From an uncultured Chloroflexia bacterium (GTDB lineage: Bacteria > Chloroflexota > Limnocylindria > QHBO01): 64,000 bases of DNA. This document shows positions 1-64,000 of this stretch, piece after piece. The translations under genes and the position numbers were made by a program. Numbering within the stretch: the stretch's first letter is position 1; every line of letters starts with the position of its first letter. The DNA is taken from positions 774,334 through 838,333 of the forward strand of contig CAVYGE010000006.1 of NCBI GenBank assembly GCA_963767985.1. Direction: 5' to 3'. Under the pieces are notes generated by a model. It searched no databases. It worked only from the letters and a program-made list of their open reading frames with translations, and had not been told where the DNA came from.

Positions 1-24
1 GCGTTCGGCATGGGTGCCTCGGAC

Positions 25-162
25 CTAGTTCCGGAGGCCGCGCACGAAGCGCAGCAGGAGCCAGATGCCGACGACCGCGAGCAGGAGCTGGCCAGGCGTC
101 AGGGCGAGGGTGATGTCGTGATCGTCGATGGCCTGGGGCAGGCTTTCGGGCTGCGGGCTCAT
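25..162 (-). CDS. Possible small single-pass membrane peptide (45 aa, MSPQPESLPQ...LLLAVVGIWLLLRFV). Its ATG overlaps the coxS-like stop codon in an ATGA arrangement.
   Basis: ATG at 162..160 overlaps the TGA stop of the upstream ORF. One hydrophobic helix. No homology recognised. Stop-free frames are common at this GC content. Confidence 0.2.
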   Translation of the reverse strand: MSPQPESLPQAIDDHDITLALTPGQLLLAVVGIWLLLRFVRGLRN

Positions 163-626
163 GCCGTCGTCCCTCGTTCCGCGGCCAGGGCGATCGCCTC
201 GATGATCTTCGTGTAGCCCGTGCACCGGCAGAGGTTTCCGGCGATCGCCTCGCGGATGTTCTCCTCGCTGGGATCGGCTCCCGAAGCCAGAAACGCGTGG
301 CCGGCCATGAGCATGCCGGGCGTGCAGATGCCGCACTGTGCGCCGCCGGTCTCGAGGAACGCGCTCTGGAGCACGTCCAGGCGATCGTCCTGCGCCAGGC
401 TTTCGACGGTGCGGATCGCGGTTCCGGCGGCCTGGCTCACCGGGACGAGACAGGCGTCGACCACGGCCCCGTCCAGCAGCACGCTGCATGCTCCGCACTC
501 GCCCTCGCCGCACCCCTCCTTCGTGCCGGTGAGGCCGAGGTCCTCGCGCAGGACGTCGAGCAGGCGCCGGCTGCCGGTGGCGCGTACATCGACCGGTTCG
601 TCGTTGACGGTGAAGCGGAAGCTCAT
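159..626 (-). CDS. [2Fe-2S]-binding small subunit of a xanthine dehydrogenase / CO dehydrogenase family molybdo-hydroxylase (CoxS-like)
   Basis: Translation MSFRFTVNDEPVDV...CGEGECGACSV...GAQCGICTPGMLM...NLCRCTGY carries the two canonical Cys clusters of CoxS/XdhC-type ferredoxin subunits. Start taken at the MSFRF ATG (626). Confidence 0.85.
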   Translation of the reverse strand: MSFRFTVNDEPVDVRATGSRRLLDVLREDLGLTGTKEGCGEGECGACSVLLDGAVVDACLVPVSQAAGTAIRTVESLAQDDRLDVLQSAFLETGGAQCGICTPGMLMAGHAFLASGADPSEENIREAIAGNLCRCTGYTKIIEAIALAAERGTTA

Positions 627-810
627 CCTTGGGGTCCCCCGGGCTGCGCATGCGTGGTGCGCGTGCATGGGCGCCAACCTGGCCGCTTCATGCGTGGGGC
701 GCATGCGACGGCTGGATTTCGACTGATTGAGGTCCGGACCATGCGCGCCGCGCATGTATCGGCCTTATCAAGGCCGATACACCCACCACGGGCATGACCA
801 CGGGCGGCGG

Positions 811-3203
811 TCATCGCGGCGTATCCGGGTCGGTCGGGGCTCGGAACGGCATCTCGTCGCCGCCCGGCGGCAGATCCTCGATCTCGGGGTCGTCGGGTCG
901 GGCCACCTCAACCGAGACGCCCGGCGCCGGCAGCTCGGAACCGCCCGTGAGTGCCGCGAGGATGCGCTCCGGAGTCGCGGGCAAGTCGTGGATCCAGACG
1001 CCGGTGGCATCGTGGATCGCGGCCACGACCGCGGGTGCTCCGACGTCCATCGGCAGCTCGCCCACGCCCTTCGCGCCGTGGGGCGCGCCGGAGAACGGCT
1101 TCTCGATGAGGATGGATTCGATGCGAGGCGCATCCATGGCCGTGGGAATGATGTAGGTCGCCAACCGGTCATTGAGGTAGCGCCCGTCGACGAGCTTCAT
1201 CTCCTCGACCGTGGCATAGCCGATCGCCTGGAGTGTTCCGCCCTCGACCTGCCCCTCGGCCAGAACCGGGTGGATGACACGCCCGATGTCGTCGGCGGCG
1301 ACGCAGTCACGAACCGCCACTTCGCCGGTGTCGAGGTCGACGTCGACCCGGACGACGCATGACGCCCAGCCGAACGCGGGGTACGCGTCCCCGGTGTACG
1401 CCTTGTCGTCGAACGGCTCGCCGGGATAGGGCGTGAACTTCTCGTCGCAGCGCAGCGGACCGGCCTCTCGATACGACTCGGCAAAGGGCCGACCGGTTGC
1501 CTGCTCGACCTGCGTCCGCAGGCGCTCCGCGGCCTTGATGATCAGACCACCGACCACCATCGCCGTGCGCGAGGCGACGGTCGGTCCGGAGTCGGGCACG
1601 ATCGAGGTGTCCTGGGGAGCTATCTCGACTTCGTCATCGTCGACGCCCAGGGCGCTGGCGACCAGCTGCGGAAAGATCGTCTTCGTGCCCTGGCCCATCT
1701 CGGTCGAGGCGGTGAGGATCCGGATCGTCCCCTCGTCGGTGAGCTCGACCGAAGCCACCGATCCCATGCGCGCCTCGCCGGACCCGGTGAACCCGGCACC
1801 GTGCCACGCGAGCGCCAGCCCGATGCCGGATGCCAGCCTGGCGCCCTCGGTACGGCTCTCGCGCATGGCTCGCGTCTGCGCATGCGACCGGTCGAAGGCC
1901 GATGCATCGGCGGCTGCCTCGAGGACCTCGATCCCGGCGACGCTCTCGCGCAGCACCTGCCCGGTCGGCGTGACGTCGCCCTCGCGATACACCCATCGGC
2001 GTCGGAGGTCGAGGGGAGACGCATCGAGCGCATGCGCGATGCGGTTCACCTGCATCTCGGCGGCGAACTCGGTCTGCGGCGCGCCGAAGCCGCGGAATGC
2101 ACCGTTCGGGGGCGTATTGGTGGCCATGGCGCGGCCGGTGATGCGGACATTGTCGCAGCGGTACGGGCCCACCTGCGTGAAGCACCCCGCGTGACAGCAC
2201 GACCGGCGTGAGCGTGCAGTACGCGCCGCCGTCCATGATGACCTCGATCTCCTGCGCCACGAGATCGCCCGCCTCGGAGACGCCGGACCGGTAGCGGATG
2301 ACAGCGGGATGCCGCTTCGTCGTCGCGCTGATGTCTTCGTGGCGGTCGTAGATCATGCGAACCGGCTTACCGCACTTGAGCGCCAGGAGTGAGGCGTGGA
2401 GCGCCAGCACCGACGGGTACTCCTCCTTGCCCCCGAACCCGCCGCCGGTCTCCGCCTGCACCACGACCGCGAGCTTGTCGCCCATGTCGAGCGCGCGCTT
2501 CATCGCCTTGTGGATGTAGTACGGGCACTGGAGCGAGCCGTGGACGGTGATCCCGCCGTCCTCTCGCGGGACGGCGATCATCGCCTGGTTCTCGATGTAC
2601 AGCTGCTCCTGGTGGCCGACCCGATACGTGCCCTCGATCACGAGGTCGGCGTTCGCCATGGCGGTGGCCGCGTCGCCTCGCTCGACCGTGTAGTGCGCGA
2701 ACTCGCGGTCCGACTTCGAGCGGATCGAAGACCGCGGGCAGACGCTCGGTCCGCAGCCTGATGTGGTGCCGCGCCGCGCGCACGGTTGCCAGATCCGGTG
2801 CGGCGACGAGCGCGCAGGGCTCCGCCTGGTGCTGGATCTCGCCACCGACCGGCACGAGGACCGGCTGGTCGTCGCTGATCAGGCTCACGATGTTCTCGCC
2901 GGGAATGTCGTCCGCCGTCACGACCACGACGCGTTTCCAGTCGAACGCGTCGTCGAGCTCGATGCCCACGAAACGGGCATGCGGTTCGGTCGATCGGATC
3001 GTGATGCCGTACCAGGCGCCAGGAAAGACGAGGTCGTCGGCGTACTTCGCGGCACCCGTGAGCTTGTCCGGGCCCTCGCGTCGGAGCGGGCCGGCGGGCC
3101 GTGCGCGACCCGGGACGCTCACACCGGTCGGGATCACGAGTGGTGTGGTTTCGGTGGTCGTTCCCGGCGTCGAAGTGCGAATGGTGAGGCTCGGGCGCTC
3201 CAT
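811..3203 (-). CDS. Molybdopterin-binding large subunit of a xanthine dehydrogenase family enzyme (CoxL/XdhB-like). Split over three reading frames, with frameshifts near 2170 and 2710.
   Basis: Three overlapping minus-strand ORFs (2367..3203, 1634..2845, 811..2172) together give a continuous ~800-aa aldehyde oxidase/xanthine dehydrogenase Mo-subunit. Recognisable segments: the N-terminal a/b hammerhead, GGGFGGK, and C-terminal GVGE..P. Confidence 0.75.
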
Positions 3204-3295
3204 CGAGCCATGCTAGCGCGTCGGGACGGCGCTGTTGACGGACGGACTACTCTATGCCGTCACTTTCTCGGACTGCGAACAAGCGGAGGGATAGG

Positions 3296-3781: not shown

Positions 3782-3785
3782 CGGC

Positions 3786-5381: not shown

Positions 5382-5431
5382 GCCGCGATGATCGCAGAGT
5401 CCCCGGCGGCGGTGACGTGCAGAATTGGACC

Positions 5432-6473
5432 ATGAGCACGGCTGCCGTCATCCTCGCCGCGGGCGCCGCCCGTCGCTTCGGGTCTCCGAAGCAGCGCGCA
5501 TCTATCGGCGATCGGACGATGCTCGAGGTCGTCTGCGCGGCCGCCACGCGCGCCGGGCTCGATCCCGTCCTGACGGTCACTTCACGCGCGGAAACGCTGC
5601 CCCCGGGTGTCACCCGCGTCGTGAACGATCGGCCAGAGGACGGCCTGAGCGCGTCGCTGCGAGCCGGGATCGGGGCCGTGCCCCCCGATGCCGAAGCGGC
5701 GGTCATCCTCCTGGGCGATCAGCCCACGGTGGCCTCGGCCACAATTCGCGCGCTGCTTCGGACCGATCGCGAGGGCAGGCCGGTCGTCGCGTCCATGGTC
5801 GGCGACGCGATCGGGCCGCCGCTGCTCATCGAGCGACGTGCCTTCGGCCTGGTGGACGGAACCGCCGGCGATGCCGGGCTGCGCGACGTCCTTGTCGAGC
5901 GATCCGAGCTCGTGACGCCGTTCCTCCACGACGACGAGCCCGTCGACATCGACACCCCGGAGGATCTGGCTCGCTCGATCGAGGTCTGCCCGGGATGCGG
6001 CGACGTTCGTCGGGCGCATCCGGATCTCGAGACGCACGCCGTATATCGGCGCATCGCCGACCTGTTGGGCGGCGTACGGGGTCGTCCTGGCCCGCGAGTT
6101 CGGCGACGTGGGGTACGGCGTCGTCCATCGTCACACGGTGGACGCCTACGCGGCGCAGCACCCAGGCGTCGACGGTCCCAGGCAGCGCCAGTCGGTGGCG
6201 GTCCACCTCATCGGCCTGTGCGGCTGGCTCGAACACCGCATGAGCCCCGACGCCCTCCTCCCGATCACGCGGCGGCTCACCGACGGATCGCGGCAGTGGC
6301 CATGGCTCGACCCGCCGGGCGGGTACGACGTCACCGTGCTCGACGTCCTGGGGGCCCGCGACGGAGACGAGCATGGGCAGCTGGTCCGGTCGTGGGCCGA
6401 GGCCGTCTGGCACGCGTGGCGAGCACACCACGACCTCGTGCGGGGCTGGACGGCTGCGGCGATTCGCTCGTGA
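5432..6473 (+). CDS. MocA/MobA-like nucleotidyltransferase (molybdenum cofactor cytidylyltransferase) fused in frame to a C-terminal CPGCG zinc-ribbon/DUF5946-like domain. One frameshift near 6065.
   Basis: N-terminal AVILAAGAARRFGSPK...LLGDQP motif of MobA-like NTP transferases. Then CPGCG..HAVYRRIADLL continues in another frame as YGVVHRHTVDAYAAQHPG...VAVHLIGLCGWLEH. Confidence 0.65.
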
Positions 6474-6540
6474 CCGCGCGCGCTGCAGCCAGCGACACGG
6501 CCGCTAGAATCGGTCACATGTTCGATTCGAGCGCGCGCCG

Positions 6541-9095: not shown

Positions 9096-9117
9096 TCCGA
9101 TCCGCAATGTTCGGCGC

Positions 9118-9144
9118 GCCCGGTCGCATCATGCGGCCGGGCGC
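9118..9144 (+). terminator. 27-nt near-perfect palindrome (CGCCCGGTCGCATCATGCGGCCGGGCG) between the permease and queA. Possible terminator/attenuator hairpin.
   Basis: A 7-bp outer stem plus an inner CGCAT/ATGCG stem, with one mismatch. It lies 23 nt after the permease stop and is followed by CGCTTTCGG. No strong U-tract. Confidence 0.35.
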
Positions 9145-9156
9145 TACGCTTTCGGC

Positions 9157-10212
9157 GTGAGCTCACCACGCCTGCGGGTCGACGACTTCGCCTACGAGCT
9201 GCCCGCCGACGCCATCGCCCAGCAGCCGGCCGAGCCGCGCGACGCATCGCGTCTTCTCGTCCTCGGGCGCGTCAAGCGGAGCGATCACACACGCCCGATT
9301 CGCCGAGATCGGTCAGTGGCTCAGGGCCGGCGATCTCCTCGTCGTGAATGACTCGCGGGTCATTCCGGCGCGGTTGCGCGGGAACTCGAGCGAGCGGAGG
9401 TGCCGCGGAGATCCTGGTTCTGCGGCCCGCGCATGACACGGACGAGTGGGAGGCGCTCGTGCGCCCGTCGCGACGGATCCGCGCGGGCGAGGCGATCACC
9501 CTGCGCAGTGGGGCCCGCGATCAGGATCGGCGACCGCACCGGCGACGGCACGCGACGCATCGGCTTCGATGGCGATCCGCACGACGTGATGGACCGCGAC
9601 GGCGAGCTGCCCCTGCCGCCCTACATCCGCGACCGCCCGCCCGATGACGAGCGCTACCAGACGGTCTACGCGCGGCCGCCGGGGTCCGCGGCGGCGCCGA
9701 CCGCCGGACTGCACTTCACCGATCGGCTGCTCGACGAGCTCGCGGACGGCGGCGTGCAGCGGGCGTCCGTGACCCTGCACGTCGGGCTCGACACCTTCCG
9801 GCCGCTGGAGGGGGAGTTCGTCGACGAGCACGAGATCCATCGCGAGTGGTACGAGGTCCCGAGCGAGACGGCCGCCGCGATTCGCGACACGCGCGCCGCC
9901 GGGGGCCGTGTCGTGGCCGTGGGTACGACCGCCGTCCGTGTCCTCGAGACGTCGGCGCGGTCGCAATCACGCTCCGGGTGGACCGACCTGTTCATCAGTC
10001 CGCCCCACTCCTTCGGCGCGGTGGATGCGCTGATCACGAACTTCCACCTGCCGCGCAGCTCGCTGCTGCTCCTGGTCACCGCCTTCGTGCAGGATGGAAT
10101 GGGCGATGCAGGCCCCCACGAAGCGCGGGATGTGCTGCTCGGGTCGTACCGCGCGGCGCTGGCGGAGGGCTACCGGTTCTTCAGCTTCGGGGATGCGACG
10201 CTGGTCGTCTAG
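9157..10212 (+). CDS. queA: S-adenosylmethionine:tRNA ribosyltransferase-isomerase QueA, disrupted by at least 3 frameshifts in this assembly
   Basis: N-terminal RLRVDDFAYELPADAIAQQPAEPRDASRLLVL, middle GDLLVVNDSRVIPARL and C-terminal ...GELPLPPYI...VGTTAVRVLE...ITNFHLPRSSLL lie in three different frames. Confidence 0.75.
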
Positions 10213-10916: not shown

Positions 10917-10962
10917 GCCAGGGTCACCTCTCCGATGTGCACGTAGCCTATCCTCTCCGGCG

Positions 10963-13557: not shown

Positions 13558-14099
13558 GTGGCAGCCCGACCCACAAGACGGAGCAGAGAGGCCTCTGAGC
13601 CTCCCTCGGCCACCGCGGCGATGGAGATCGCCACCCGGTTCCTGGCTGCCCGTCCCAGGTCCCGGTGGGAGATCGAGCGACGCCTTGCCCGCGCGTCGGT
13701 GGGTGAGAAGGTGATCCGATCCACCGTCGAGCGGCTCGCCGAGCTGGGCTACGCCGATGACGCGGCCTTCGCGCGCTGGTGGGCTGAACAGCGGGACCGT
13801 CACGCTCCGCGCGGCCGTCGCCTGCTCGAGGCCGAGCTGCGGCGTCAAGGGGTCCCGCGTGACGTGATCGACGCGGTCCGCGACGAGATCGATGCACCCG
13901 AGCGGGCGCCGGAGGACGAAGAACTCCCCGGCTCGGAGCTCGAGCGCGCGAGCGATGCGCTGCAGCGACACCTGCGGGGCCGCCCCATGCCCGAGGATCC
14001 GCGGGCACGGCAACGCATCGGCATGTACCTGATGCGTCGCGGATTCGACGCGAGCACGACGCGGATGGTGATCGGCGCCCACATCAGCCGAGGACATGA
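13558..14099 (+). CDS. recX: Recombination regulator RecX. The C-terminal boundary is uncertain: there is no in-frame stop before the next gene.
   Basis: MEIATRFLAARPRSRWEIERRLA...LGYADDAAFARWWAEQR...LMRRGFDASTTRMVIG matches RecX. The frame reads through into the DUF1801 gene. An out-of-frame TGA at 14097 would give a ~180-aa RecX if a 1-nt indel is present. Confidence 0.6.
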
Positions 14100-14166
14100 C
14101 CGAGGAAGCGACTGGACCGACGGACTAGGCTGGGTGGGAGCACCCGAGTTCAGGAGAGGCGCGAGC

Positions 14167-14654
14167 ATGGCCAGCAACGCACGCACACCGGAGGAGTACA
14201 TCTCGTCTCTGCCCGCGGACCGCGCCGCGGCGGTCGAGGAGGTTCGACGCGTGATCCGTGGAGAACCTTCCCGAGGGGTACGAGGAGGGCATGCAGTTCG
14301 GAATGATCGGATGGTACGTGCCGCTCGAGCGATTCCCCGACACCTACAACGGTCAACCGCTCGGGCTCGCGGCCCTCGCCAGTCAGAAGCATCATCTCAG
14401 CCTCTACCTCAACAGCGTCTACGGGGACCCTGCGACCGAACGATGGTTCCACGATCGGTACGCCACGTCGGGAAAGAAGCTCGACATGGGCAAGTCGTGC
14501 CTGCGATTCAAGCAAGTGCGACGACCTCCCGCTCGACGTGATTGGCGAGACCATTGCCCGGGCGGACCTCGATGAGTTCCTCGACCACTACCGCGCGGCT
14601 CGAGGGTCGTCGCGGCGCACGCGAAACGCCGGTCACGGGTCATCGAATCCGTGA
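14167..14654 (+). CDS. DUF1801 (YdhG/YdeI-like) domain protein, with 2 frameshifts
   Basis: [10 protein letters not shown] before ATG 14167. TPEEYISSLPADRAAAVEEVRRVIRG / ENLPEGYEEGMQFGMIGWYVPL...KHHLSLYL...GKSCLRFKQV / DDLPLDVIGETIARADLDEFLDHY are read in three frames. Confidence 0.6.
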
Positions 14655-14678: not shown

Positions 14679-14938
14679 GCCCGTGTCTCTGGGTGCCTAG
14701 CCTGTGGGCGTGAGACTTGCCGACTGGCTCGATGAATACCGAACCCTGCCGACGGAGGGATTCTCGCGACCCCAGACCGCAGCCGGACGACTGGGAGGAG
14801 CAGGACCTGATCGCCCCGCCGGACCGCGAGCCCGATCTGTCACCTCGATGGCTGCGACGCGCCGAACGCGTCGGCTACGGACGCCCGACCCGGCTCTAGC
14901 CGCCGTCGCCGGCACCGCTACGCCCCGGGGTCTAGGCT

Positions 14939-15899
14939 GTGGCCATGCGTTACGCCCTCATGACCGAGCCCCAGCAGGGGCTGACCTACGACGAGCTGTT
15001 GGCCATCGTGCGAACCGCCGAGGAGGCGGGGATCGAGGCGTTCTTCCGATCCGATCACTACGCCAGCTTTCCGGGTGATGCCGGCCTTCCGACGACGGAC
15101 GCGTGGACGACGATCGGTGGACTCGCGCGGGAGACCACCACGATCCGGCTGGGGATTCTCGTGTCACCGGTGACCTTCCGGATCCCCGGCACGCTGGCGA
15201 AGGTCATCCAGACCGCCGACGAGATGAGCGGGGGCCGCATCGAGGCGGGCCTCGGCGCCGGCTGGAACGAGGAGGAGCACGCGCAGCTCGGCATACCGTT
15301 CCCGCCCATCGGCGAGCGCTACGACATGCTGGCCGAGCAGCTGGAGATTCTGCACGGCCTGTGGACCGAACCCGATGGCTGGTCGTACGAGGGCAAGCAT
15401 TGGCAGGTCCGCGACGCCATCCGACACGGCCCGATTGCACGTGACGGGCGACGCCACCCGCACATCATCCTCGGCGGCCGCGGGCTGCCGCGCATGGCCG
15501 ATCTCGCCGCACGCTACGCGGACGAGTTCAACCTGTTGTCCGCGTCGCCCGAAGGCGCTTCGGCGGCGTACCGCCGCGTGCGAGACGCCTGCCAGACGGT
15601 CGGGCGTGATCCCGACGAGCTGGTGTACTCGGCCATGACCGGGGTGCTCGTGGCGGAGACCGAGGACGACCTCATGACACGGGTCAACGATCTCATGGCC
15701 GCGCTCGGGAATCGGCCCGAGGACTCGTCATCCTGGCTCGCCGAGCGGCGCGCCCGCTGGATCATGGGTACGCCCGACGAAGCCGCCGAACGCGTGGCGG
15801 CGCTTGGGTCGCGAAGGGACGGAGCGGATCATGCTGCAGGACTTCCTGCCGCGCGACCTCGACCACGTCCGGCTCATCGGCCGGATCTTCGCCGGCTGA
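14939..15899 (+). CDS. LLM-class (luciferase-like) F420-dependent oxidoreductase, with one frameshift near 15815
   Basis: MRYALMTEPQQGLTYDELLAIVRTAEEAGIEAFFRSDHY...typical TIGR03560-like family. C-terminal ...IMLQDFLPRDLDHVRLIGRIFAG is in a second frame. Confidence 0.7.
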
Positions 15900-16051
15900 G
15901 GCTCGGCTCCCGACCGCGGCCGAAGTTGCGCTACACTCCCACGATCGGGACGCCCCGACGCCAGAGACTCATCTGTCTCTGCCGAGACGCCCGCCGCATG
16001 GCGAGCGCGATACCGCCCATACCGGGCTCCAACGAACGGGGGAGCCGAATC

Positions 16052-17589
16052 ATGATCGACCCTCTCGTCGCCGTTCTCGCGGCGACGATCGCCGGCATCG
16101 CCGGCATCGTCATAGGCCTCTTCGTCCGGCGCGTGCTCAGCTCACGCTCCGTGAAGCACGCCGATCACTACGCCGAGCGCCTCGTCGCCGATGCGCGCGC
16201 CAAGCAGAAGGAGATCGTCCTCGAGGGCAAGGACGAGGCCCTGCAGCTGCGGCGCGCGGCCGAAGAAGAGGCGCGCGAGCAGCGAGTCACCATTCAGCGT
16301 TCCGAGCGCCGACTCCTGGACCGGGAGGAGGCGCTCGATCGCAAGATCGAGGCTCTCGAGCGCCGCGAGGAGGCTCTCGGCCAGCGGCAGGAGGAGCTGG
16401 AGGAGGAGCTGCGTCGCGTGGCCGAGCTCCAGGAGCGCCAGCTGAACGAGCTCCAGCACATCTCCGGCCTGAGTGCCGCCGAGGCCCGCGAGGGCCTCAT
16501 CGGCCAGATCGTCGACGAGGCCCAGGCGGAAGCGCAGCACCGCGTTCGCGAAATCGAACGACATGCCACCGAGGAGGGCGAGGACCGGGCCCGCAGGGTG
16601 CTGACCACGGTCATGCAGCGGATCGCGGCGGATCATACCTCGGAGGCCACGATCACCGTCGTGCCGCTGCCGAATGAGGAGATGAAGGGCCGAATCATCG
16701 GCCGCGAGGGGCGCAACATCCGCGCGCTCGAGCAGGCCACCGGCGTCGACCTGATCATCGACGACACGCCGGAAGCGGTCGTGCTGTCCGGGTTCGACCC
16801 CGTGCGTCGCGAGGTCGCGCGACTCACGCTCCTCAAGCTGATCTCGGACGGCCGCATCCATCCCGGCCGCATCGAGGAGACGGTCGCCAAGTGCCGATCC
16901 GAGATCGAGGTCGTGATGCGCCAGTCCGGCGAGCAGGCCGCCTACGATGCCGGCGGTTCCGGGCTCTGCATCCGGAGCTGATCAAGCTCATCGGCCGCCT
17001 CAAGTACCGCACCAGCTACGGCCAGAACGTGCTGAATCACTGCGTCGAGACCTCCCGTCTCGGCGGGCCTCCTGGCCGCCGAGATCGGGGCCAACGTCGC
17101 CGAGTCCAAGAAGGGCGGCCTGCTGCACGACATCGGCAAGGCCGTCGATCACGAAGTGGAGGGTCCGCACGCCGCCATCGGCGCCGAGATCGCCAGCCGC
17201 TACGGGGTCACACCGACGGTGTGCAACGCGATCGCGGCCCACCACCAGGAGGTGGAGCAGGAGACGACCGAGGCAACCGTGGTCCAGATCGCCGACGCGA
17301 TCAGCGCGTCGCGGCCCGGGGCGCGCGGGGAGAACCTCGACAACTACGTGAAGCGCCTCGACGACCTTCAGCAGATCGCGCTGAGCTTCCCGGCGGCGTC
17401 GAGCGCTGCTTCGCGATCCAGGCCGGGCGCGAGATCCGCATCCTCGTCCGGCCGGATGCGATCGATGATCTGGCCTCGAGCCGCCTCGCTCGCGACGTGG
17501 TGAAGAAGATCGAGGAGCAGCTCCAGTACCCGGGCCAGATCAAGGTGACCGTCATCCGCGAGACCCGCGCCGTCGACTTCGCCCGGTGA
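16052..17589 (+). CDS. rny: Ribonuclease Y (membrane anchor, coiled coil, KH, HD), disrupted by about 4 frameshifts in this assembly
   Basis: N-terminal [27 protein letters not shown] and a coiled coil. KH domain [30 protein letters not shown]-domain pieces [29 protein letters not shown] / [24 protein letters not shown]...AIAAHH / ...[17 protein letters not shown] lie in different frames. GGGGAG SD before ATG 16052. Confidence 0.8.
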
Positions 17590-18432
17590 GCAGCGGCACC
17601 CGCATCTGCGTCATCGGCGACATCATCGGCAAACCCGGCCGCCTGGCGGTCATGCACGTGCTGCCGGACCTTCGTCGCGAGCTGGAGCTCGATCTCGTCA
17701 TCGCCAATGGGGAGAACACGGCGGCCGGCGCCGGCCTGACGCCGAGCCTGGCCGAGGAGCTGCTGGGCGGGGGCGTCGATGTCATCACCAGCGGGAATCA
17801 CATCTGGGACAAGCGCGAGATCTACGACTACCTCGACACCGGCCGCCCGGTCCTGCGCCCGATCAACTATCCCGACGAGGCGCCCGGCCGCGGCTGGCTG
17901 GTTCATCACGCGGAGGACGGAACCGAGGTCGCGGTGATCAACGCCATGGGCCGCGTCTTCATGAACCAGCTGGACTCGCCCTTCACCAAGCTCGACGCGC
18001 TGCTGGACGAGGCCGCAGAGCCGTTGCCGAAGATCCGCATTCTCGACTTCCACTGTGAGATCACGTCGGAGAAGAACGCCATGGGCTGGTACCTGGACGG
18101 CCGCGTCAGCGGCGTGGTGGGAACGCACACCCATGTTCCGACGGCGGACGCCCGAGTCCTGCCCGGCGGGACGGCGTACATCAGCGACATCGGCATGACC
18201 GGACCGCGCGACTCGGTCATCGGCTTCAGCCTCGAGACGGTCCTGCCGCGCTTCACGCGCCATCTTCCGACCCGATTCGCCGTGGCCGATGGGCCGGTTG
18301 CGTTCAACGCGGTGGTCATCACGGTTGATCCGGCGACGGGGTCGGCAAGCACCATCGAGCAGGTGCAGCGCCTGATCGAGGTGTACGGTGGAGTCCCGGC
18401 GAGTATATACGTATATACTCGCGAGGCAATGA
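17586..18432 (+). CDS. ymdB: YmdB-family 2',3'-cyclic-nucleotide 2'-phosphodiesterase (metallophosphoesterase). As sequenced it reads through in frame into miaA.
   Basis: [14 protein letters not shown]...GNHIWDKRE...[10 protein letters not shown] is a TIGR00282-type metallophosphoesterase. The expected stop TGA (18430-18432, overlapping the miaA ATG) is in the +1 frame. Confidence 0.75.
18399..18422 (+). repeat. 24-bp AT-rich perfect palindrome GCGAGTATATACGTATATACTCGC at the ymdB/miaA junction
   Basis: Reverse-complement identity over 24 nt. This is an AT-rich island in ~70% GC DNA, and its core TATATACGTATATA is unusual for this genome. Confidence 0.6.
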
Positions 18433-19361
18433 AGGGTCCGGGGCCCCTCGTCGCGGTCGTCGGGCCCACCGCCTCGGGCAAGACGGACCTGGCTCTGGCG
18501 CTTGCCACAAAGTGGCCGGTCGAGGTCCTCGTCGCCGATTCGCGACAGGTGTACCGCGGCATGGACGTCGGCACGGCGAAGCCGGATCACGACGCGCGCG
18601 CGCGGGTCCGGCATCACCTCATCGACGTCGTCGAACCCGGCGATGCATTCAGCGTGGCCCGGTGGGTCGAGCTGGCCCGGGCAGTCATTCCGGAGGTCGC
18701 CGAGCGGGGTCGGATCCCGATGGTCGTCGGCGGCACAGGTCTCTACATCACGTCACTGCTCGACGGCCACGACTATGCCGGTCAGCCGTGGTCACCCGAG
18801 GTCCGCCGTCGATTGACCGATGAGCTCGCGGCCGACGGGCTTGGCGCGATGGCGGCGCGGCTTGCGGCCGTCAATCCCGAGGTGGCAGCACGGACCGACC
18901 TCAGCAATCCGCGCCGAGTGCTCCGTGCCCTCGAGCGCGTCGACGCCGGAGGTGGGGGAGTGCCCGTCCACAACATGCCGTACGCGGGACGCGTGGCCAT
19001 GATCGCCCTCACCCGGCCGCGCGCCACGCTTGCCCGGCGCATCGACGAGCGTGCCGCGTGGCTGTTCGCGCATGGGCTTCTGGACGAAGTGCGGCGCCTG
19101 ATGAGTGGGGGGACCGCCGCGGACAGTCATCCGATGACAGGTCACGGATATGCCGAGGCGGCTCGCGTCCTGGCGGGGGAATGGTCGCTCGAGGAAGCGG
19201 TTCGGGTCACGGCGGCGCGCACCCGCCAGTACGCGAAGCGCCAGCTCACGTGGTTTCGGCGCGATCCGCGGATCGTGTGGATCGCGGCCGGCGACCGCCC
19301 CGGGGACGACCCGAGCCTCGTGGCCGAGGCCGACCGCGTCCTTCGCGCCGCGCTCAGTTGA
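18429..19361 (+). CDS. miaA: tRNA dimethylallyltransferase MiaA
   Basis: [26 protein letters not shown]...VADSRQVYRGMDVGTAKP...Walker A and the DMAPP-binding loop. The ATG at 18429 is in frame with ymdB. Confidence 0.85.
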   Translation: MKGPGPLVAVVGPTASGKTDLALALATKWPVEVLVADSRQVYRGMDVGTAKPDHDARARVRHHLIDVVEPGDAFSVARWVELARAVIPEVAERGRIPMVVGGTGLYITSLLDGHDYAGQPWSPEVRRRLTDELAADGLGAMAARLAAVNPEVAARTDLSNPRRVLRALERVDAGGGGVPVHNMPYAGRVAMIALTRPRATLARRIDERAAWLFAHGLLDEVRRLMSGGTAADSHPMTGHGYAEAARVLAGEWSLEEAVRVTAARTRQYAKRQLTWFRRDPRIVWIAAGDRPGDDPSLVAEADRVLRAALS

Positions 19362-20956
19362 TGGTGGATAGACCCATCGACTCGCGCCAGGCGGCCACGC
19401 CAGCCGACGTCAGCTCGGGAACACGATGGACCGGCAACGCCTTCCGCTCGAGCGGTCCGGGCCGCCCCAGGTGGTAGCCCTGCCCATGCAGGATGCCAAG
19501 GGCAGTCAGTGGCTCCATCTGCGTCGCGTGCTCGATCCCCTCCGCGATGACCATGGCGCCGGTGCGCGTCGCGAGATCGACCACCGAGCCCAGCACGGCG
19601 CTGTAGCGGCCGTCGGACGCGCTGCGTTGGACGAGCGTCAGGTCGACCTTGAGGATGTCGAACCCGATATCGGCAAGCAGACGGAGTCCCGCGTTGCCGG
19701 CGCCGATGTCATCGGCGGCGAACCGGATCCCGAGGCGACGGCATGCATCGAGCCGAGCGCGCACGCGTTCGATGTCGATGAACTGCTGCTGCTCGGTGAT
19801 CTCGATCACCAGCCGGTCGCGACGGGAAGTCATGGCGTGCCAGGATGGCCTGGATGGCGGAGGCGCTGAACTCCGGCGCCTCGACGGTCGGTGGCGAGAG
19901 GTTGACGCTCAGGAACTGGTCGGCCGGCAGCCCTCCGGCGTTGGCCACGATCGTCTCGATGCAAGCGAGGTCGAGCGCCGAGAGCCGGCCACCGGCCTCG
20001 GCGGCGGCGAACAGCGAACCCGGGTTGTCGAATGGGGCAGGCGGGAGAGGTCGGATCAGGCCCTCGACACCGACCGTTCGGCCGTCGACCAACGACACGA
20101 TGGGCTGGAACACCGCTCCGAGGTGACCATGCGCGATGACCTGTGCCACGGCCGCTGCCGCTGAGGTGGCATCGGCGGGGGAGTCGGATGCCGTCGGGGA
20201 GAAGACGACGATGTCGGTGCGGCCGCCGCGCTTCGCCGCATACAGCGATGCGTCGGCCTGGGAGTAGAGCTGCGCGGCGGACTCCGCGAATGCCGGCAGA
20301 CCCGAGATCCCGCAGGAGAACGAGATCGGCCCGGTGTCCGAGTGGCCGGTCGAGGGCTGCAGCGTCTGGGCGAGGATGCGTCGCATGACGATGCGCGCAC
20401 CTTCGGGATCGGTGTGTGGCAGGAGAACCGCGAACTCGTCACCACCGACCCGATACGGGCGGTCGGCGAGGCGCAGCCCAGCCGGGATCAGCTCACCCAG
20501 CGCCCTGAGGACGCGGTCTCCGGCTGCGTGGCCCTGTCCGTCGTTGATGGCCTTGAACTCATCGAGGTCGATGAGCGCCAGGGCCAATGGCGTCTCGTAG
20601 CGCAGCGAGGCCGCCACCTGCCGCTCGAGCTCTTCGTGGAACGCGCGATGGTTGCCGAGGCCGGTGAGTGGATCGCGGAGTGCGTCGGCAACCGCGGCCT
20701 CGTACCGCAGCTGAAGGTCGGCATGGACGTCCGCAAAGGGAGCCACCATGAGCCGCAGGGCGACGCCGGCGACCGCCATCGACCCGATCGCGGCGACGAT
20801 GACCGCCGCCAGCTCGTCCGGCCCGATGACGAGGAGTGCCAGGCGGTGCGACACGACGAACGCGCCCAGGGCGCAGACGAAGCCCAGGGCGAAACGCCCG
20901 GCCAGCCCGGACGGCAACCCCCCGATTCGCGTGGCGCCGGCACGAGCGTGCTTCAC
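19354..20956 (-). CDS. Membrane-anchored GGDEF-EAL protein (diguanylate cyclase / phosphodiesterase), with a frameshift near 19800
   Basis: TM segments, then a GGDEF domain (RVGGDEF) and an EAL domain (EGLIRP...). The C-terminal EAL part continues in ORF 19354..19833. The start is uncertain (GTG 20956 chosen). Confidence 0.65.
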
Positions 20957-21092
20957 CTGGTCTCCGATCAGGCTCCAAATGCCCCCAGGCACGTGGTTAT
21001 CGCAGAATTGGTGCTTGTGCGCACCCGGACGTTCGTACCCCAGAGGAAGCGTGGGGCGCCACGAATGCATTCCGCTACCATTGGTCGAACAG

Positions 21093-36715: not shown

Positions 36716-37381
36716 CTAGCGGTGGCCGCTACCGTGGTAGAAGAAGGGCTCCGCGGCTCGGACCGATACCGACCACGCGAGCGTCCGCAGGCGAGCCTCG
36801 AGCTCATCGGGGCGCCACAGCACCTTCACCGCCTGGTGCCGGGTCCCGTCGAGCAGGGTCCGCCACACGAGGTCCCGATGCTCGTCGGCCCACTCCTCGC
36901 GTCGGTCGAGGCTGTCAGCCTCATCGACGAAGAAGACGCGTCCGTCGGGCGCCAGCAGGCCGGCGACGCCGCTCCAGAAGTCGTCGAAGCGACTCCTCGG
37001 GACGTGGGACAGGAAGAAGCCGAAGAAGACGACGTCCCACGCGTGCGTCGCCTCGAGCGCGAACGCATCGGCCATGCGATAGCGTGACTCGTGGATCGTC
37101 GCACCTTCGCTGCGTTGATCTCGAGCATCTCGGGCGAGGTGTCGGTGGCGGTGAGCGCATCGGCGTACTCGGCCAGCAGGCCGGTCCATTGGCCGGTGCC
37201 GGCGGCCAGCTCCAGGACTCGACCGCGTGGCTCGAACTCGCGCAGGGCCCGACGGACCGCGTCGAATAGCGGATCGAGTGGATCGTCCGTCCGGCGTCGA
37301 GGTGAGGTCGTACTCCGCGGCCCGCGCGCGGTAGTACGCCACCTGCGCCTCGAGGACGCGACGGTCGTCCGGATCGCCCAT
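36716..37381 (-). CDS. Class I SAM-dependent methyltransferase, with about 2 frameshifts
   Basis: [26 protein letters not shown]... and ...[23 protein letters not shown]...[12 protein letters not shown] are in one frame. The SAM-binding middle part is in another. Confidence 0.55.
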
Positions 37382-39174: not shown

Positions 39175-39691
39175 TCACACGCCCCCTGCCAGGCGCGCCG
39201 CGACTTCGAGGCAGGCGAGGGCCGAGGCTCGCTTGTTGCCGTCGCGGTCGTGCGGCCAGACATGACGCTCGATCACCGTCGGACCATCGCGGATGCCGGC
39301 CGCCACGTAGGTGAGGCCCGACCGGCTTCTCGGACGAGCCACCGTCGGGGCCGGCGATGCCGGTGACCGCCACGGCAAGATGCGCCGCCGGGAAACGATC
39401 GAGCGCCCCGCCGGCCATCGCCTCGGCCACTTCGGACGAGACGGCTCCATCCCTCCCGATCAGGTCGGGCGCGACGCCCAGCAGATCCTCCTTCACCGCG
39501 TTCGAATAGCTCACCACGCCGCCGAGGTAGTGGTCGCTCGACCGCGGAACCTGGGTGATCGAATGCCCGACGAGTCCGCCGGTGCAGGACTCGGCGCTCG
39601 CCATCTGCCAGCCGTGTCGGGCGAGAATCCGGCCGAGACGGGCGGCCGCCGTTCGGAGGTCGTCGTCCGTCGGAGGGCGCGTGCTGGGCAT
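39175..39691 (-). CDS. CinA C-terminal-domain protein (PncC-like NMN deamidase), with a frameshift near 39360
   Basis: LGRILARHGWQMASAESCTGGLVGHSITQVP...GGVVSYSNAVKEDLLGV...AVAVTGIAGPDGG then ...GLTYVAAGIRDGPTVIERHVWPHDRDGNKRASAL in a second frame. Confidence 0.7.
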
Positions 39692-40208: not shown

Positions 40209-41502
40209 TCAGCTCCCGCTGCGGGCAATCTGCCACTCGACGACGTCGCCCGCGCCCCCCATGGCGCCGAGGACGGCGCCGTTGATCGTGAGGCGCACCA
40301 CGCCGGCGTTCCCCACCCGGACGCGCAACGACCGCTCCGCACGCAGCGCAATGGATTCTCCGTCTCCGGCGATACCGCCCGAGACGTCCGCGAGCGGCGC
40401 GCCGTCCTGGTCGATCTCGACGTACGTTTCGCCGCCGTCCACCCCGAGCGTGCCCTGGAGGCCCGGCGCTGGGGCAACCGTGACGCGACGCGTCACCGGC
40501 GCAGACGATCCTGCGACGACCGCCAGGTCCCATGACCCCGGGCTGAGCGTCAGGGATGCGCTGAACGCCCCGGCGTCATCCGCCGTCACGGCGACCGGCG
40601 CCGGAGCGGCCGGACCCGACGGCGTGACCGGTACCGGCTGGCCGTTGAGATCGGTGATCGTGAAGCTCGGAGGCGCGGCGCTCACCAGCGTGGCGCTGGC
40701 CGTGAGGCCCTCTCCCGGAGCCGCCGTCCCGGTGACTCCGACGGGTCCGGTGACGGTGGCATCGACCGCGGGGGTCGTCAGGGTGACCGTCGATGTCGCC
40801 GGCGACGGGCTGGCAGGGTCGGCGCTCACGACGTTCACGCGCCGCACGAACTCCTCGGACGTCCGGTTCGTGATCGGATCGCGGGCCGTGATGATGGATC
40901 TCGTTCGAGCCGGGGAGCAGACCCACGGTGATCTCGAAGTTGCCCTCGGCATCGGCCGTGGCGCTCGGGTTCTCGGGCAGGCCGCTGATGTTGATCGTGG
41001 CGTTGGAGCTCGTCGTGCCGCGCAGCGTGATGGTTGCCCCGGTGTGCGCGGCCACGTCGCCCGGAGGATCGAGAATGATGAGCTCGGGCGTTCGCGCGAA
41101 GTTCACGAACTGGTATCCGAGCCACGCGACAAAGGCGCCGACCAGGACGGTGAGGATGGCGGCCGCAATCGCCCCGGGGGTCACGATGAGCGTTCTCCGG
41201 CGCCGGACCGACATCGGGCGCGGCGGACCGGGGAGGGTGGGCCGCTCGATGCTGCCGGCACGCGTCTCGAGCCGATAGAGGTCGATCAGGTATTCGGCAT
41301 CCAGGTCGAGGTAGGCCGCGTAGTTGCGCAGAAATCCGCGGGTGTAGACCGATCCGGGCAGCTCCCGATACTCACCCCGTTCGAGGGCGGAGAGGTAGCG
41401 CTCGCGGATCTTCGTCTCGCGCTCGACCCGGGCGAGATCTGCGCCCTTCGCCTCGCGCGCCGCTCGCAGGACCTCGCCGAGCTTGTGGCCGTCCTCGGTC
41501 AC
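40209..41502 (-). CDS. RodZ-like protein: XRE helix-turn-helix, TM segment, DUF4115-like C-terminal domain. Frameshift near 40870.
   Basis: HTH LGEVLRAAREAKGADLARVERETKIRERYLSALERGEYRELPG. TM IAAAILTVLVGAFVAWLGY. The C-terminal domain continues in ORF 40209..40952. Its ATG overlaps the ftsK stop (ATGA). Confidence 0.65.
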
Positions 41503-46280: not shown

Positions 46281-48891
<2,611 letters not shown>

Positions 48892-52502: not shown

Positions 52503-52505
52503 CGG

Positions 52506-59150: not shown

Positions 59151-59158
59151 TCGGTCAC

Positions 59159-59851: not shown

Positions 59852-59854
59852 CGG

Positions 59855-60412: not shown

Positions 60413-60416
60413 CGGT

Positions 60417-61158: not shown

Positions 61159-61159
61159 G

Positions 61160-61792: not shown

Positions 61793-61809
61793 GTCCCTTC
61801 CCCCGCCGG

Positions 61810-62766
61810 CTACGGGCGGGGCTCCTCTTTCTTGGTCAGCTCGTCGATCTGGCGCTCGTGCTCCCGATCCGGGTTGTGCTCGGGCTCGCCCTCTTCGAGA
61901 TGAGCGGCTCGTCGGGCGCGTGCCTTGCGCTCCTCTTCCTCGTCGTCCTCGGGCTCAGGCTCGAAGACCAGGGCCTCACCGGTGGCGAGGGCTGCGGTGT
62001 AATCGGCCTCCGAGCCGAGCGCGGTGTCGTCGACCGGGGGCATGGCCTCGGCCTGCTCGAACTCCTCGTCGAGCTTCGCCTGGCGCTCCTGCTGGGCGAC
62101 GCTCGCCGCATCGGAGACCAACGCGCAGATCAGCCGCACGGAGCGAATCGCGTCGTCATTGGCCGGGATGACCCAGTCGATCAGATCCGGGTCGCAATTC
62201 GTGTCGGTCATCGCCACGATCGGGATCTCGAGGCGCCGCGCCTCGGCGACCGCGATCTCCTCGCGATGGGGGTCGACGATGAAGACGGCCCCGGGCAATC
62301 GGCGCATCTTGCGGATTCCACCCAGCACCGCGTTGAGCTTGTTGATCTCTTCGGTGAGCTTCGAGGCTTCCTTCTTGGTCAGACGCTCGAACTCGCCGGC
62401 GTCGCGACGCGCCTCGAGTGCCTCGAGACGCTGGATGCGGCGCTTGATCGTGGTGAAGTTCGTGAGCATCCCGCCGAGCCAACGGGTGTTGACGTAGTGC
62501 TGACCGGAGCGGGTGGCGGCCTCCGCCAGCGCGTCCTGCGCCTGCTTCTTCGTCCCGACGAAGAGCACGCTGTCCCCGCGCCGCACGGTCTCGCGCACGA
62601 ACTCGAGCGCGGCTTCGAGACGTGAGACGGTCTGGGCGAGGTCGATGATGTGGATCCCGTTCCGCTCCGCGAAGATGTACTCGCGCATCTTCGGGTTCCA
62701 GCGGCGGGTCTGATGCCCGAAGTGGACGCCCGCTTCGAGCAGCTGCTTCATGCTGGTGGCAGCCAA
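61810..62766 (-). CDS. rpsB: 30S ribosomal protein S2 with an ~80-aa acidic C-terminal extension
   Basis: [22 protein letters not shown]...full S2 core, then an [13 protein letters not shown]... tail. Confidence 0.93.
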
Positions 62767-63095
62767 GTGATACCTCCGGTTCGTTCCTCCGCCCGACCTC
62801 GGCTCCCGAGGTCAACCTCTCTCCGGAGCGCGGGCTCCGTCCGAGGCACCGACGACCAGTCAGGATCAGCCGGGCGTGTGAGATGGGTTCCCGTGCGACT
62901 GCACGAGGGATCGAGTATAGCAGAGGCGGCCCGCGGTCCCCGAAGGCCCCCCGCAGGGCCGGGGTGCCCCAATCCGCACCACACGGTACCGAAGTACTCC
63001 CCCGCCACCCGCAGGTACCTTGACCCTCCCGAGATCGGTCCTAGCATCCGCCCGCATCGTGAGACGAGGAGTCGAGCAGGTCGCTCCGCGTCGCA

Positions 63096-64000
63096 GTGAA
63101 CCGCAGGTGGAGGATCGACACATTGCACCGAGCCCGGCTCATCTCGCTCCTGGCGCTTCTTGGCCTCACCCTCGTCACCGGTCCGATTCTCGGCAGCGCG
63201 GCCCTGGCCGCGGACCCGATCGTGACCGTCCAGTCCGGTGACACACTGACGAGCATCGCGAGGCGCCATGACGTCGAGATCAGCACGCTGGTCGAGCTGA
63301 ACGCGCTCGCCGACCCGAATCGCATCTACGCCGGCCAGCGGCTCCGCACGACTGCGGCCCCACCCACGACCAGCGCTCCATCGCCGGTGCCCGCAGTCGC
63401 CGCGCGGGTGCACACGGTGCAGTCGGGCGAGCATCTCACCGGGATCGCGCGCCGCTATGGCACCACGATCGCGCGGATCAGCCAGGCGAACGGCATCACC
63501 AACCCGAGCCGCATCTACGCCGGTCAGCGCCTGACGATTCCGGGCACGGCGCCCGCGGCCCCGGCCGCCCCGCCTGCGGCAGCTCCGCCCGCCCCGGCAC
63601 CGCCCGCAGTCGCGGCGCGGGTGCACACGGTGCAGTCGGGCGAGCATCTCACCGGGATCGCGCGCCGCTATGGCACCACGATCGCGCGGATCAGCCAGGC
63701 GAACGGCATCACCAACCCGAGCCGCATCTATGCCGGTCAGCGCCTGACGATTCCGGGCACGGCGCCCGCGGCCCCGGCCGCCCCGGCTGCGACGACGCCC
63801 TCCATGCCCGGCTCGATGGCTGCGCTCGTGGCGAAGCGTGCCGGCGTCCGCGCCGTCATTCTCGAGGAGGCCGCCCGGTTCGGTGTCCCGGGACCATTCG
63901 CGCTCGCCGTGGCATGGCAAGAGTCCGGCTGGCAGCAGGGCGTGGTCAGCCACGCCGGTGCGGTGGGCGTCATGCAGCTCATGCCCGCAACGGCGGAGTG
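63096..64000 (+). CDS. Secreted LysM x3 - lytic transglycosylase (SLT domain) protein, partial: it runs off the window end
   Basis: Signal peptide [27 protein letters not shown]. Three LysM modules ([14 protein letters not shown]..., 2x [29 protein letters not shown]...). SLT motif ...ESGWQQ...[16 protein letters not shown] 63096 or TTG 63123 start. The frame is absent from the ORF track because no stop occurs within the window. Confidence 0.75.
63393..63785 (+). repeat. Tandem 213-bp duplication (~99% identical copies) encoding LysM module 2 and 3 of the LysM-SLT protein
   Basis: 63393-63572 equals 63606-63785 with 2 mismatches. Confidence 0.85.

What the first reader, a model, noticed from the sequence alone, without database searches (positions are those of the whole stretch)
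1..64000. Pervasive frameshifts in conserved, including essential, genes point to homopolymer indel errors rather than real pseudogenes
At least 16 conserved genes need 1 to 4 frame changes to be read: coxL, mocA fusion, queA, DUF1801, LLM oxidoreductase, rny, GGDEF-EAL, pirin, methyltransferase, Mur ligase, cinA-C, rodZ-like, pnp, the giant kinase, and probably ymdB and recX (missing stops). Many of their neighbours are intact (recA, ruvB, ftsK, rnj, infB, nusA, and others). The queA example resolves to a C-run length difference (cacacacgCCCgatt). The affected genes include ones expected to be indispensable (rny, pnp, murC-like). Random-looking indels in a draft or long-read assembly are the most economical explanation. 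Every ORF boundary in this window should therefore be treated as provisional.
Basis: inference. Interest (0 to 1): 0.55.

Follow-up and report, generated by a model that had tools for sequence, protein, structure and literature searches.

The report
Insertion-type assembly errors break genes
Sixteen conserved genes in this soil-bacterium contig are broken by about 32 tiny indels, almost all single extra bases outside homopolymer runs; these look like consensus errors of a long-read metagenome assembly, not real gene decay.

Summary
Frameshift-aware alignment to orthologues from five related Limnocylindria (Chloroflexota) loci confirms 32-33 frame-breaking indels in 16 genes.

An artefact is by far the best explanation. 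Flanks are conserved right up to each lesion, with no nonsense codons. murC, pnp and rny are hit. Short-read MAGs of relatives are intact. Another long-read-style contig (L084) and two Microflora Danica Nanopore MAG loci carry the same kind of lesion at different sites. The aberrant proteins are already public, all from one 931,794-bp contig.

"Homopolymer" is wrong. There are 29 insertions against 3 deletions. No insertion lies in a run of 4 or more, although the window has 399 such runs, and run length at the sites equals that at random positions. Events are clustered, and none falls in the last 15.6 kb.

The platform and the exact error mechanism could not be determined without reads. Biologically this is not a real feature. 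Its value is as a quality warning.

The parts
835..3203 (-). coxL-like xanthine-dehydrogenase-family Mo-binding subunit, read in three frames. +1 insertions at 2167-2170 and 2714-2717.
   Evidence: 91% identical to L083 CoxL (794 aa) once corrected. The 453-aa C-terminal fragment is in the public collection (P0445).
5432..6473 (+). MocA-like NTP_transf_3 + DUF5946 fusion gene. +1 insertion at 6038 (cac[G]ccg).
9116..10212 (+). queA. -1 at about 9152-9159; +1 at 9271, 9380 and 9516-9522.
   Evidence: Orthologue L083:2923-4020 passes the queA equivalog models.
13558..14127 (+). recX. Probable +1 between 14085 and 14123, so the TAG at 14125-14127 is out of frame and the ORF runs on to 14541.
   Evidence: The C-terminal tail is poorly conserved, so the position is approximate.
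14158..14639 (+). DUF1801-domain gene. +1 at 14260 and +1 at 14519.
14936..15896 (+). F420-dependent LLM-class oxidoreductase. +1 at 15815. The broken frame runs without a stop into rny, giving a 680-aa ORF at 14939-16981.
16025..17589 (+). rny (RNase Y). +1 at 16955, +1 at 16965, +1 at 17062, +2 at 17393.
   Evidence: 93% identical to L001 RNase Y after correction. The orthologue passes the TIGR03319 equivalog.
17586..18386 (+). ymdB. A 1-nt deletion at 18383-18387 destroys the TGA stop (gtc TGA cgg becomes gtg tac gg), fusing ymdB to miaA as a 591-aa ORF at 17586-19361.
   Evidence: The fused 591-aa product is in the public collection (P0428).
19357..21004 (-). GGDEF-EAL gene. +1 at 19816-19819.
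25656..31535 (-). Multi-GAF hybrid histidine kinase (1959-aa ORF). Three +1 insertions at 28829-28832, 28564-28567 and 28317-28320. About 170 codons are read out of frame, but the ORF stays open.
   Evidence: The shifted frames restore a normal GAF repeat and 83% identity to P0317. The junk-containing 1959-aa product is public (P0427).
35725..36683 (-). pirin. +1 at 36221-36224, +1 at 36208-36211, +1 at 35931-35934, -1 at 35890-35894.
   Evidence: 93% identical to L082 pirin after correction. The 183-aa fragment is public (P0443).
36920..37381 (-). Small SAM-methyltransferase gene (present in L084, absent from L082). +1 at 37282-37285 and +2 at 37076-37080.
   Evidence: Only 62% identical to the reference, so this is the least certain entry.
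37765..39169 (-). murC. +1 at 38908-38911, 38370-38373, 38321-38324 and 38293-38296.
   Evidence: The orthologue passes the TIGR01082 murC equivalog cut-off (364.6 bits against 335.1).
39175..39691 (-). cinA C-terminal (PncC-like) domain gene. +1 at 39316-39319. The stop codon is intact. A further +1 at 39173 lies in the 5-nt spacer before murC.
40215..41502 (-). rodZ-like HTH_25 gene. +1 at 40890-40893 (cat[C]atc).
46284..48891 (-). pnp (869-aa PNPase with an inserted RNase_T domain). +1 at 48396-48399 (acc[G]aac).
   Evidence: 98% identical to P0001 on both sides of the lesion.

Best explanation
The frameshifts are errors of the consensus sequence of a long-read metagenome assembly, not mutations in the organism. 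The window is part of a 931,794-bp contig of a Limnocylindria-like Chloroflexota genome.

The error mode is unusual. It consists of single (rarely double) extra bases placed without regard to sequence context. They occur in local clusters, with essentially no substitution errors and very few deletions. This is not the classic homopolymer under-calling.

Shown:
- the lesions, their polarity and their context
- their absence from short-read relatives
- the presence of the same lesion type at different sites in other long-read-style assemblies

Inferred:
- that the assembly is long-read (from contig length and sources only)
- that the cause lies in consensus or polishing. Possible causes are low local coverage, or co-assembled strains whose alternative alleles both end up in the consensus. 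I could not test these.
For: 1. Polarity and context do not look like natural mutation. There are 29 insertions and 3 deletions (P = 2.6e-6). There is no homopolymer enrichment, and no shared motif was evident by eye (no formal motif test was run). The codon phase of the extra base cannot be told from uniform (weighted counts 10.7, 5.8 and 11.5; my chi-square on these gives p of about 0.4).

2. There is no other sign of decay. No in-frame stops appear in any corrected alignment covering about 9,000 codons, and no large deletions. Residues are identical to orthologues right up to each lesion. Examples are pnp (98% identical on both sides), rny (93%), pirin (93%) and murC (89%, despite four hits).

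3. Genes expected to be needed are hit: murC (equivalog-level assignment), pnp and rny.

4. The pattern follows the type of assembly, not the lineage. Relatives assembled under short-read-style names (L001, L081, L082, L083; 80-88% DNA identity) have every one of these genes intact. L084 (ENA ERZ25039498 contig_40721, 243 kb) is broken in different genes by the same kind of lesion: five +1 insertions (rodZ, murC, pirin, kinase, ymdB), a less certain sixth in the kinase, and one -1. Two unrelated Microflora Danica Nanopore MAG loci (L032 rny, L052) carry verified context-free +1 insertions.

5. Candidate density is 2.97 per 10 kb in the window, against 0.35 per 10 kb in 41 other high-GC loci.

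6. The lesions are in the deposited record and were not introduced later. The aberrant products P0427, P0428, P0443 and P0445 exist in NCBI and ENA, from one 931,794-bp contig.

7. Literature context. [quoted passage not shown] More frameshift errors were seen for ONT than for HiFi in soil data sets (PMC13087279).
Against: - No reads are available, so no lesion could be checked directly.
- The source record and sequencing platform were not identified. The look-up of encoding contigs returned nothing for the window's own proteins.
- The events are clustered. They spare the 15.6-kb block of translation and envelope genes (rpsO to rpsB) and most other core genes such as recA, ruvB, ftsK, rnj and infB. 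Selection on real mutations would also produce this pattern, whereas a uniform random error process would not.
- Several clusters add up to a multiple of three (kinase +3, methyltransferase +3, the 38296-38373 triplet in murC, the first three bases in rny). This could be read as compensation, although queA, pirin, murC overall, rny overall and ten single events do not restore the frame.
- An insertion-dominated, context-free profile is not the textbook profile of any platform that I can document from the papers read.
Confidence: 0.88

Rival explanations
1. One reading: classic homopolymer-length miscalls (454, Ion Torrent or older Nanopore type), in which runs of one base are called too short or too long.
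For: A few sites can be read as a run growing from 2 to 3 bases: 2170 (ggg/ccc), 9380, 39319 and 17062. The deletion at 35890-35894 abuts a run of four. This is the error type described for Nanopore (PMC9262707, PMC11649196). It is seen in L021, a Nanopore-only Streptomyces assembly whose lesions are -1 deletions in G/C runs.
Against: No insertion lies in a run of 4 or more, although 399 such runs are available. Run length at the events equals that at random positions (2.09 against 2.16). The polarity is the opposite of homopolymer under-calling (29 insertions, 3 deletions). About half the extra bases differ from both neighbours.
Confidence: 0.03
2. Real, recent gene decay. On this view the organism (or the dominant strain) carries about 16 young pseudogenes in 64 kb, produced by an insertion-biased mutational process, while selection keeps the essential genes intact.
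For: Lesions are concentrated by gene (up to 4 per gene). They spare recA, ruvB, ftsK, rnj, infB, nusA, frr, pyrH, tsf, rpsB and the whole of 48400-64000. Most genes hit are individually dispensable in some bacteria (coxL, mocA, queA, recX, pirin, GGDEF, cinA, pnp). The lesions are present in the deposited record.
Against: - From my own knowledge of the field, natural bacterial indel spectra are deletion-biased and run-associated, and substitutions outnumber indels several-fold. Here there are 29 insertions and 3 deletions, no run association, no nonsense codons and no excess divergence in genes carrying 3-4 indels.
- murC is broken four times.
- The same lesion type occurs at different sites in unrelated long-read MAGs, but not in short-read relatives.
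- About a quarter of the genes being pseudogenes is unexpected for a free-living soil bacterium with otherwise perfect synteny and operon structure.
Confidence: 0.07
3. Programmed recoding. On this view the extra bases are real and are bypassed by +1 ribosomal frameshifting, quadruplet decoding or transcript editing.
For: Nearly all events have the same polarity (+1), and the downstream frames are fully conserved.
Against: - The sites share no slippery or quadruplet motif. The 'fourth bases' follow Leu, Gly, His, Arg, Val, Ser, Ala, Pro and Thr codons.
- No 0-frame stop lies at the shift sites; the next stop is 72-3176 nt away. This is unlike prfB or Euplotes.
- No site is conserved in any relative, and all orthologues are uninterrupted.
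- Two or three events within 10-80 nt of each other (16955/16965, 36211/36224, 38296-38373) make no sense as recoding signals.
Confidence: 0.01

Closest known systems
Indel errors in long-read (meta)genome assemblies that truncate predicted proteins (the problem measured by IDEEL-type length-ratio tests; PMC13087279; Watson & Warr 2019, cited from my own knowledge)
   Same: Conserved genes are split into fragments or fused, while orthologues in accurate assemblies are full length. The density is about 0.5 per kb. It is worse in soil and low-coverage MAGs. The aberrant proteins propagate into public databases.
   Different: The usual description is of homopolymer-associated, deletion-biased errors. 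Here the errors are context-free insertions, clustered, with hardly any substitutions.
Classic Nanopore homopolymer deletions, as in locus L021 (Streptomyces sp. AC2023, 'barcode24 contig_1')
   Same: A similar density of frameshift candidates (9 in 21 kb) in a high-GC genome.
   Different: In L021, 7 of 9 events are -1, and several of them sit in or next to G/C runs (gggg-g, g-cccc). In the window, 29 of 32 are insertions and none is in a run of 4 or more.
Pseudogene-rich decaying genomes (for example Mycobacterium leprae and recently host-restricted symbionts; from my own knowledge)
   Same: Many conserved genes are interrupted while neighbours stay intact, and there are several lesions per gene.
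   Different: Decaying genomes show nonsense mutations, larger deletions, elevated non-synonymous change, IS expansion and a deletion bias. None of these is seen here.
Programmed +1 frameshifting (prfB; Euplotes-type genome-wide +1 shifts; from my own knowledge)
   Same: A +1 polarity with a conserved downstream frame.
   Different: There is no stop or hungry codon at the site, no shared motif and no conservation of the site among relatives.

Membership tests
Assembly or consensus indel artefact | The lesion is absent from accurate reads or assemblies of the same genome. | not testable with these tools
   No reads and no same-species assembly are available. The best pnp relative is 98% identical in protein but only 88% in DNA.
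Assembly or consensus indel artefact | Orthologues in independently assembled relatives are uninterrupted at every affected site. | tested here: met
   The short-read-style loci L001, L081, L082 and L083, and L084 where it is not itself broken, have continuous ORFs at the affected sites each of them covers (the window kinase and methyltransferase sites are covered only by L084).
Assembly or consensus indel artefact | The sequence on both sides of a lesion is as conserved as in intact genes, with no accompanying nonsense or missense load. | tested here: met
   No stops appear in the corrected alignments. Flanking residues are identical to orthologues up to the lesion.
Assembly or consensus indel artefact | The same lesion type recurs at unrelated positions in other assemblies made the same way, and not in assemblies made differently. 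| tested here: met
   L084, L032 and L052 carry +1 context-free insertions at other sites. The background in 41 other high-GC loci is 0.35 per 10 kb, against 2.97 in the window. Caveat: the window's own pipeline is inferred, not known.
Homopolymer-length sequencing error | Indels lie within runs of one base, more often in longer runs. | tested here: not met
   None of the 29 insertions lies in a run of 4 or more, although 399 such runs are present. The mean run at the events is 2.09, against 2.16 at random positions.
Homopolymer-length sequencing error | The inserted or deleted base is identical to its neighbours. | tested here: not met
   At about half the sites the extra base differs from both neighbours, for example acc[G]aac, cat[C]atc, ggc[T]ctg and tct[G]ccg.
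Genuine pseudogenes or genome decay | A mixed lesion spectrum (nonsense, deletions, insertions) with a deletion bias. | tested here: not met
   There are 29 insertions and 3 deletions, no in-frame stops and no deletions longer than 1 nt inside the affected genes.
Genuine pseudogenes or genome decay | The lesions are confirmed in the organism's DNA by accurate reads. | not testable with these tools
   No read data are available.
Programmed ribosomal frameshifting | A conserved slippery or stall motif at the shift site. | tested here: not met
   The contexts are heterogeneous. The next 0-frame stop is 72-3176 nt away.
Programmed ribosomal frameshifting | The frameshift is conserved in orthologues. 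| tested here: not met
   All orthologues examined are in a single frame at these positions.

The most novel reading that the evidence does not exclude
The extra bases are real. On this reading a Limnocylindria population carries dozens of context-free +1 insertions in conserved genes, including murC, pnp and rny. Either it tolerates them through an unknown recoding or editing mechanism, or it is in the first stage of an insertion-biased genome decay, with the same process acting in related lineages such as L084.
Probability: 0.04. Interest if true: 0.75.

Novelty: not a real feature. Interest (0 to 1): 0.12.

Why it matters
Biologically there is nothing new here: the genes are ordinary and almost certainly intact in the cell. 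The practical points matter more.

1. About a quarter of the genes in this 64-kb stretch are mis-predicted. The wrong products are already in NCBI and ENA protein collections: a 591-aa YmdB-MiaA 'fusion', a 1959-aa kinase with about 170 residues of junk, and CoxL and pirin fragments.

2. The error mode is not the homopolymer type that polishing tools and curators expect. A homopolymer-only fix, or an ORF-length check, would miss the kinase, where three insertions cancel out and leave the ORF open.

3. The same +1, context-free signature appears in other long-read MAG loci from unrelated phyla. This suggests a systematic consensus or polishing artefact that is worth characterising on the read data.

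Tried and rejected
- Looked for the window's own record with the look-up of encoding contigs, using rnj and infB. Nothing was on record. Only listing of cluster members showed that the proteins exist, from a 931,794-bp contig. The platform therefore remains inferred.

- Looked for a same-species reference. The best relatives are 88% (L081), 87% (L082), about 81-83% (L083), about 78-82% (L001) and about 77% (L084) identical in DNA, so no read-level or strain-level check was possible.

- Tested whether the extra bases prefer a codon position. A preference would support the idea that both alleles of a synonymous strain SNP are kept in tandem. The weighted phases were 10.7, 5.8 and 11.5, not distinguishable from uniform, and most sites are ambiguous because of four-fold degenerate codons. 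The idea is neither supported nor excluded.

- Tested whether events fall in locally more divergent DNA. There is a weak trend in all four references, significant only against L082 (0.81 against 0.87, P = 0.004), and partly circular because the gaps themselves lower identity.

- Considered that frame-restoring triplets of insertions reflect selection. Rejected as a general pattern: queA, pirin, murC and rny have net shifts of +2, +2, +4 and +5, and ten events are uncompensated singles.

- The apparent frame change at 25321 is the boundary of the Hpt gene and the response-regulator cyclase gene. HMM switches at 34785-35009 and 49344 are noise.

- tRNA and Rfam scans found nothing in the window, so RNA genes could not serve as an independent error check.
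Full report
**What the window is.** The window has 69% G+C. It encodes a syntenic run of housekeeping genes:
- coxSL, queA, tgt, ruvB and recA-recX
- rny-ymdB-miaA and hflX
- a multi-GAF hybrid kinase
- murC-cinA-yajQ-rodZ-ftsK-rnj and pnp-rpsO
- ribF-truB-rbfA-infB-nusA, rseP-dxr-cdsA-uppS-frr-pyrH-tsf-rpsB

The closest public relatives are Chloroflexota / Candidatus Limnocylindria MAGs.

I fetched five syntenic reference loci:
- L001 (JAILWI010000003.1; about 80% DNA identity; window 2826-23561)
- L083 and L081 (GCA_041743915.1; 81-88%; window 1-13100 and 46246-54542)
- L082 (GCA_039917415.1; 87%; window 35724-49359)
- L084 (ENA ERZ25039498 contig_40721; about 77%; window 15600-41500)

Exact-sequence look-ups show that the window's own proteins are in NCBI and ENA, from a single contig of 931,794 bp.

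**Checking the observation.** I wrote a protein-to-DNA alignment that allows 1- and 2-base frameshifts and ran every reference protein against the window.
- a -1 in queA at about 9154
- double events at 16955/16965 and at 36211/36224
- the triplet 38296/38324/38373 in murC
- a +1/-1 pair at 35934/35894 in pirin
- two events in a small methyltransferase (37285, 37080)
- three +1 events inside the giant kinase (28832, 28567, 28320)

The kinase ORF stays open across about 170 out-of-frame codons. Only the shifted frames restore a normal GAF repeat and 83% identity to the orthologue P0317.

The 'missing stops' are explained as follows. The ymdB TGA is destroyed by a 1-nt deletion at 18385. The recX TAG is put out of frame by a probable +1 at 14085-14123.

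A codon-usage HMM that uses no homologues finds the same switches. Its candidate density is 2.97 per 10 kb, against 0.35 per 10 kb in 41 other high-GC loci (P = 5e-12).

**What the lesions look like.** Codon-level views show residues identical to the orthologue right up to each lesion. One example is pnp, GGEFVTNPT[+G][10 protein letters not shown], which is 98% identical on both sides.
- Of 32 scored events, 29 are insertions (27 of one base, 2 of two bases) and 3 are single-base deletions (P = 2.6e-6 against 1:1).
- None of the insertions lies in a homopolymer of 4 or more, although the window holds 314 runs of 4, 77 of 5 and 8 of 6.
- The longest run touching an event averages 2.09 nt, against 2.16 nt for random positions.
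- About half of the extra bases differ from both neighbours.
- No motif is shared, and the codon phase of the extra base cannot be told from uniform.

Both references put the extra base at 9271 (cgc[G]tca), and only that placement reproduces the conserved RS-GAITHARF peptide.

The events are clustered (CV of spacing 1.54, P = 0.003). None occurs in 48400-64000 (P = 1e-4), 19820-28316 or 40894-48395.

**Artefact or biology?** Five lines of evidence point to an artefact.

1. The spectrum (insertion-only, context-free) is unlike natural bacterial indels. From my own knowledge, those are deletion-biased and run-associated.

2. There is no other decay. No in-frame stop appears in any corrected alignment, there are no larger deletions, and genes carrying 3-4 indels show no excess divergence.

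3. murC (TIGR01082 equivalog), pnp and rny are among the broken genes.

4. The pattern follows the kind of assembly, not the lineage.
   - Four relatives with short-read-style contig names are intact at every site.
   - L084, a 243-kb 'contig_' assembly from ENA, is broken in other places by the same kind of lesion: five clear +1 insertions in rodZ, murC, pirin, kinase and ymdB, and one -1.
   - Two unrelated Microflora Danica Nanopore MAG loci carry verified +1 context-free insertions: L032 in rny (gcc[G]ctc) and L052 (gac[G]cgc).
   - By contrast L021, a Nanopore-only Streptomyces assembly, shows the classic profile of -1 deletions in G/C runs.

5. The lesions are in the deposited record. 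The 1959-aa kinase with junk, the 591-aa YmdB-MiaA fusion, and the pirin and CoxL fragments all exist verbatim in the public protein collection.

[quoted passage not shown] **What remains open.** I could not identify the record or its platform, and I have no reads. The clustering and the sparing of the translation-gene block do not fit a uniform random error process.

They would fit either local coverage or strain-heterogeneity effects on the consensus, or selection acting on real mutations. A weak tendency for events to lie in locally more divergent DNA is compatible with the heterogeneity idea but does not prove it.

I put the artefact explanation at about 0.88, real young pseudogenes at about 0.07, classic homopolymer error at about 0.03 and programmed recoding at about 0.01.

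**Comparison with what is known, and verdict.** This is the well-known problem of indel errors in long-read assemblies truncating proteins, here in an insertion-dominated, non-homopolymer form. As a biological feature it is not real, so interest is low. Its value is as a quality flag for this contig and for similar MAGs. ORF-length checks alone will not catch every case, as the kinase shows.

Noticed in passing
window 46284-48891 (-); the RNase_T part lies at about 47666-48128. Also P0001, P0002 and more than 100 homologues.: The PNPase of this clade is about 869 aa long. It carries a DEDD-type RNase_T (PF00929) domain at aa 255-408, inserted between the first RNase PH core and the remnant of the all-alpha PNPase domain. 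JGI often annotates it as 'DNA polymerase III epsilon subunit family exonuclease'. One literature search found no paper describing such a PNPase.
   Followed up: partly
window 18400-18421: A perfect 22-nt AT-rich palindrome, CGAGTATATACGTATATACTCG, lies in the ymdB-miaA spacer of a 69% GC genome. It is absent from the L001 orthologous spacer. It could be an operator or a terminator stem. Its function was not examined.
   Followed up: no
L084:1-23870 (ENA ERZ25039498 contig_40721): This related 243-kb contig has its own set of broken genes: rodZ, murC, pirin, M14 peptidase (split 92+561 aa), GAF kinase (split 557+1289 aa) and ymdB (split 178+97 aa). The lesions are mostly +1 insertions outside homopolymers.
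   Followed up: yes
L032:12915 and L052:2880 (Microflora Danica Nanopore MAG loci); L021:1085-6374: Unrelated long-read MAG loci show verified +1 context-free insertions: rny in L032 and another gene in L052. A Nanopore-only Streptomyces assembly (L021) instead shows -1 deletions in G/C runs. Two different error signatures therefore exist among long-read assemblies.
   Followed up: partly
window 36744-37287: The window and L084 carry a small SAM-methyltransferase gene between pirin and the 125-aa gene. L082 lacks it: there is a gap of about 540 nt in the window/L082 alignment.
   Followed up: partly
window 25656-31535 (-): The hybrid histidine kinase holds seven or more GAF domains. Neighbouring repeats are nearly identical to each other (for example the [48 protein letters not shown] module occurs twice). 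Orthologues have fewer repeats (1289 aa in P0317), so repeat number varies between relatives. Such repeats are also a risk for long-read consensus.
   Followed up: no
window 31631-35660: Two divergently oriented secreted-enzyme genes both carry triple CWB2 cell-wall-binding domains: an M14 carboxypeptidase (31631-33889, -) and a GH16 glycoside hydrolase (33708-35660, +). The GH16 gene is absent from L084.
   Followed up: no
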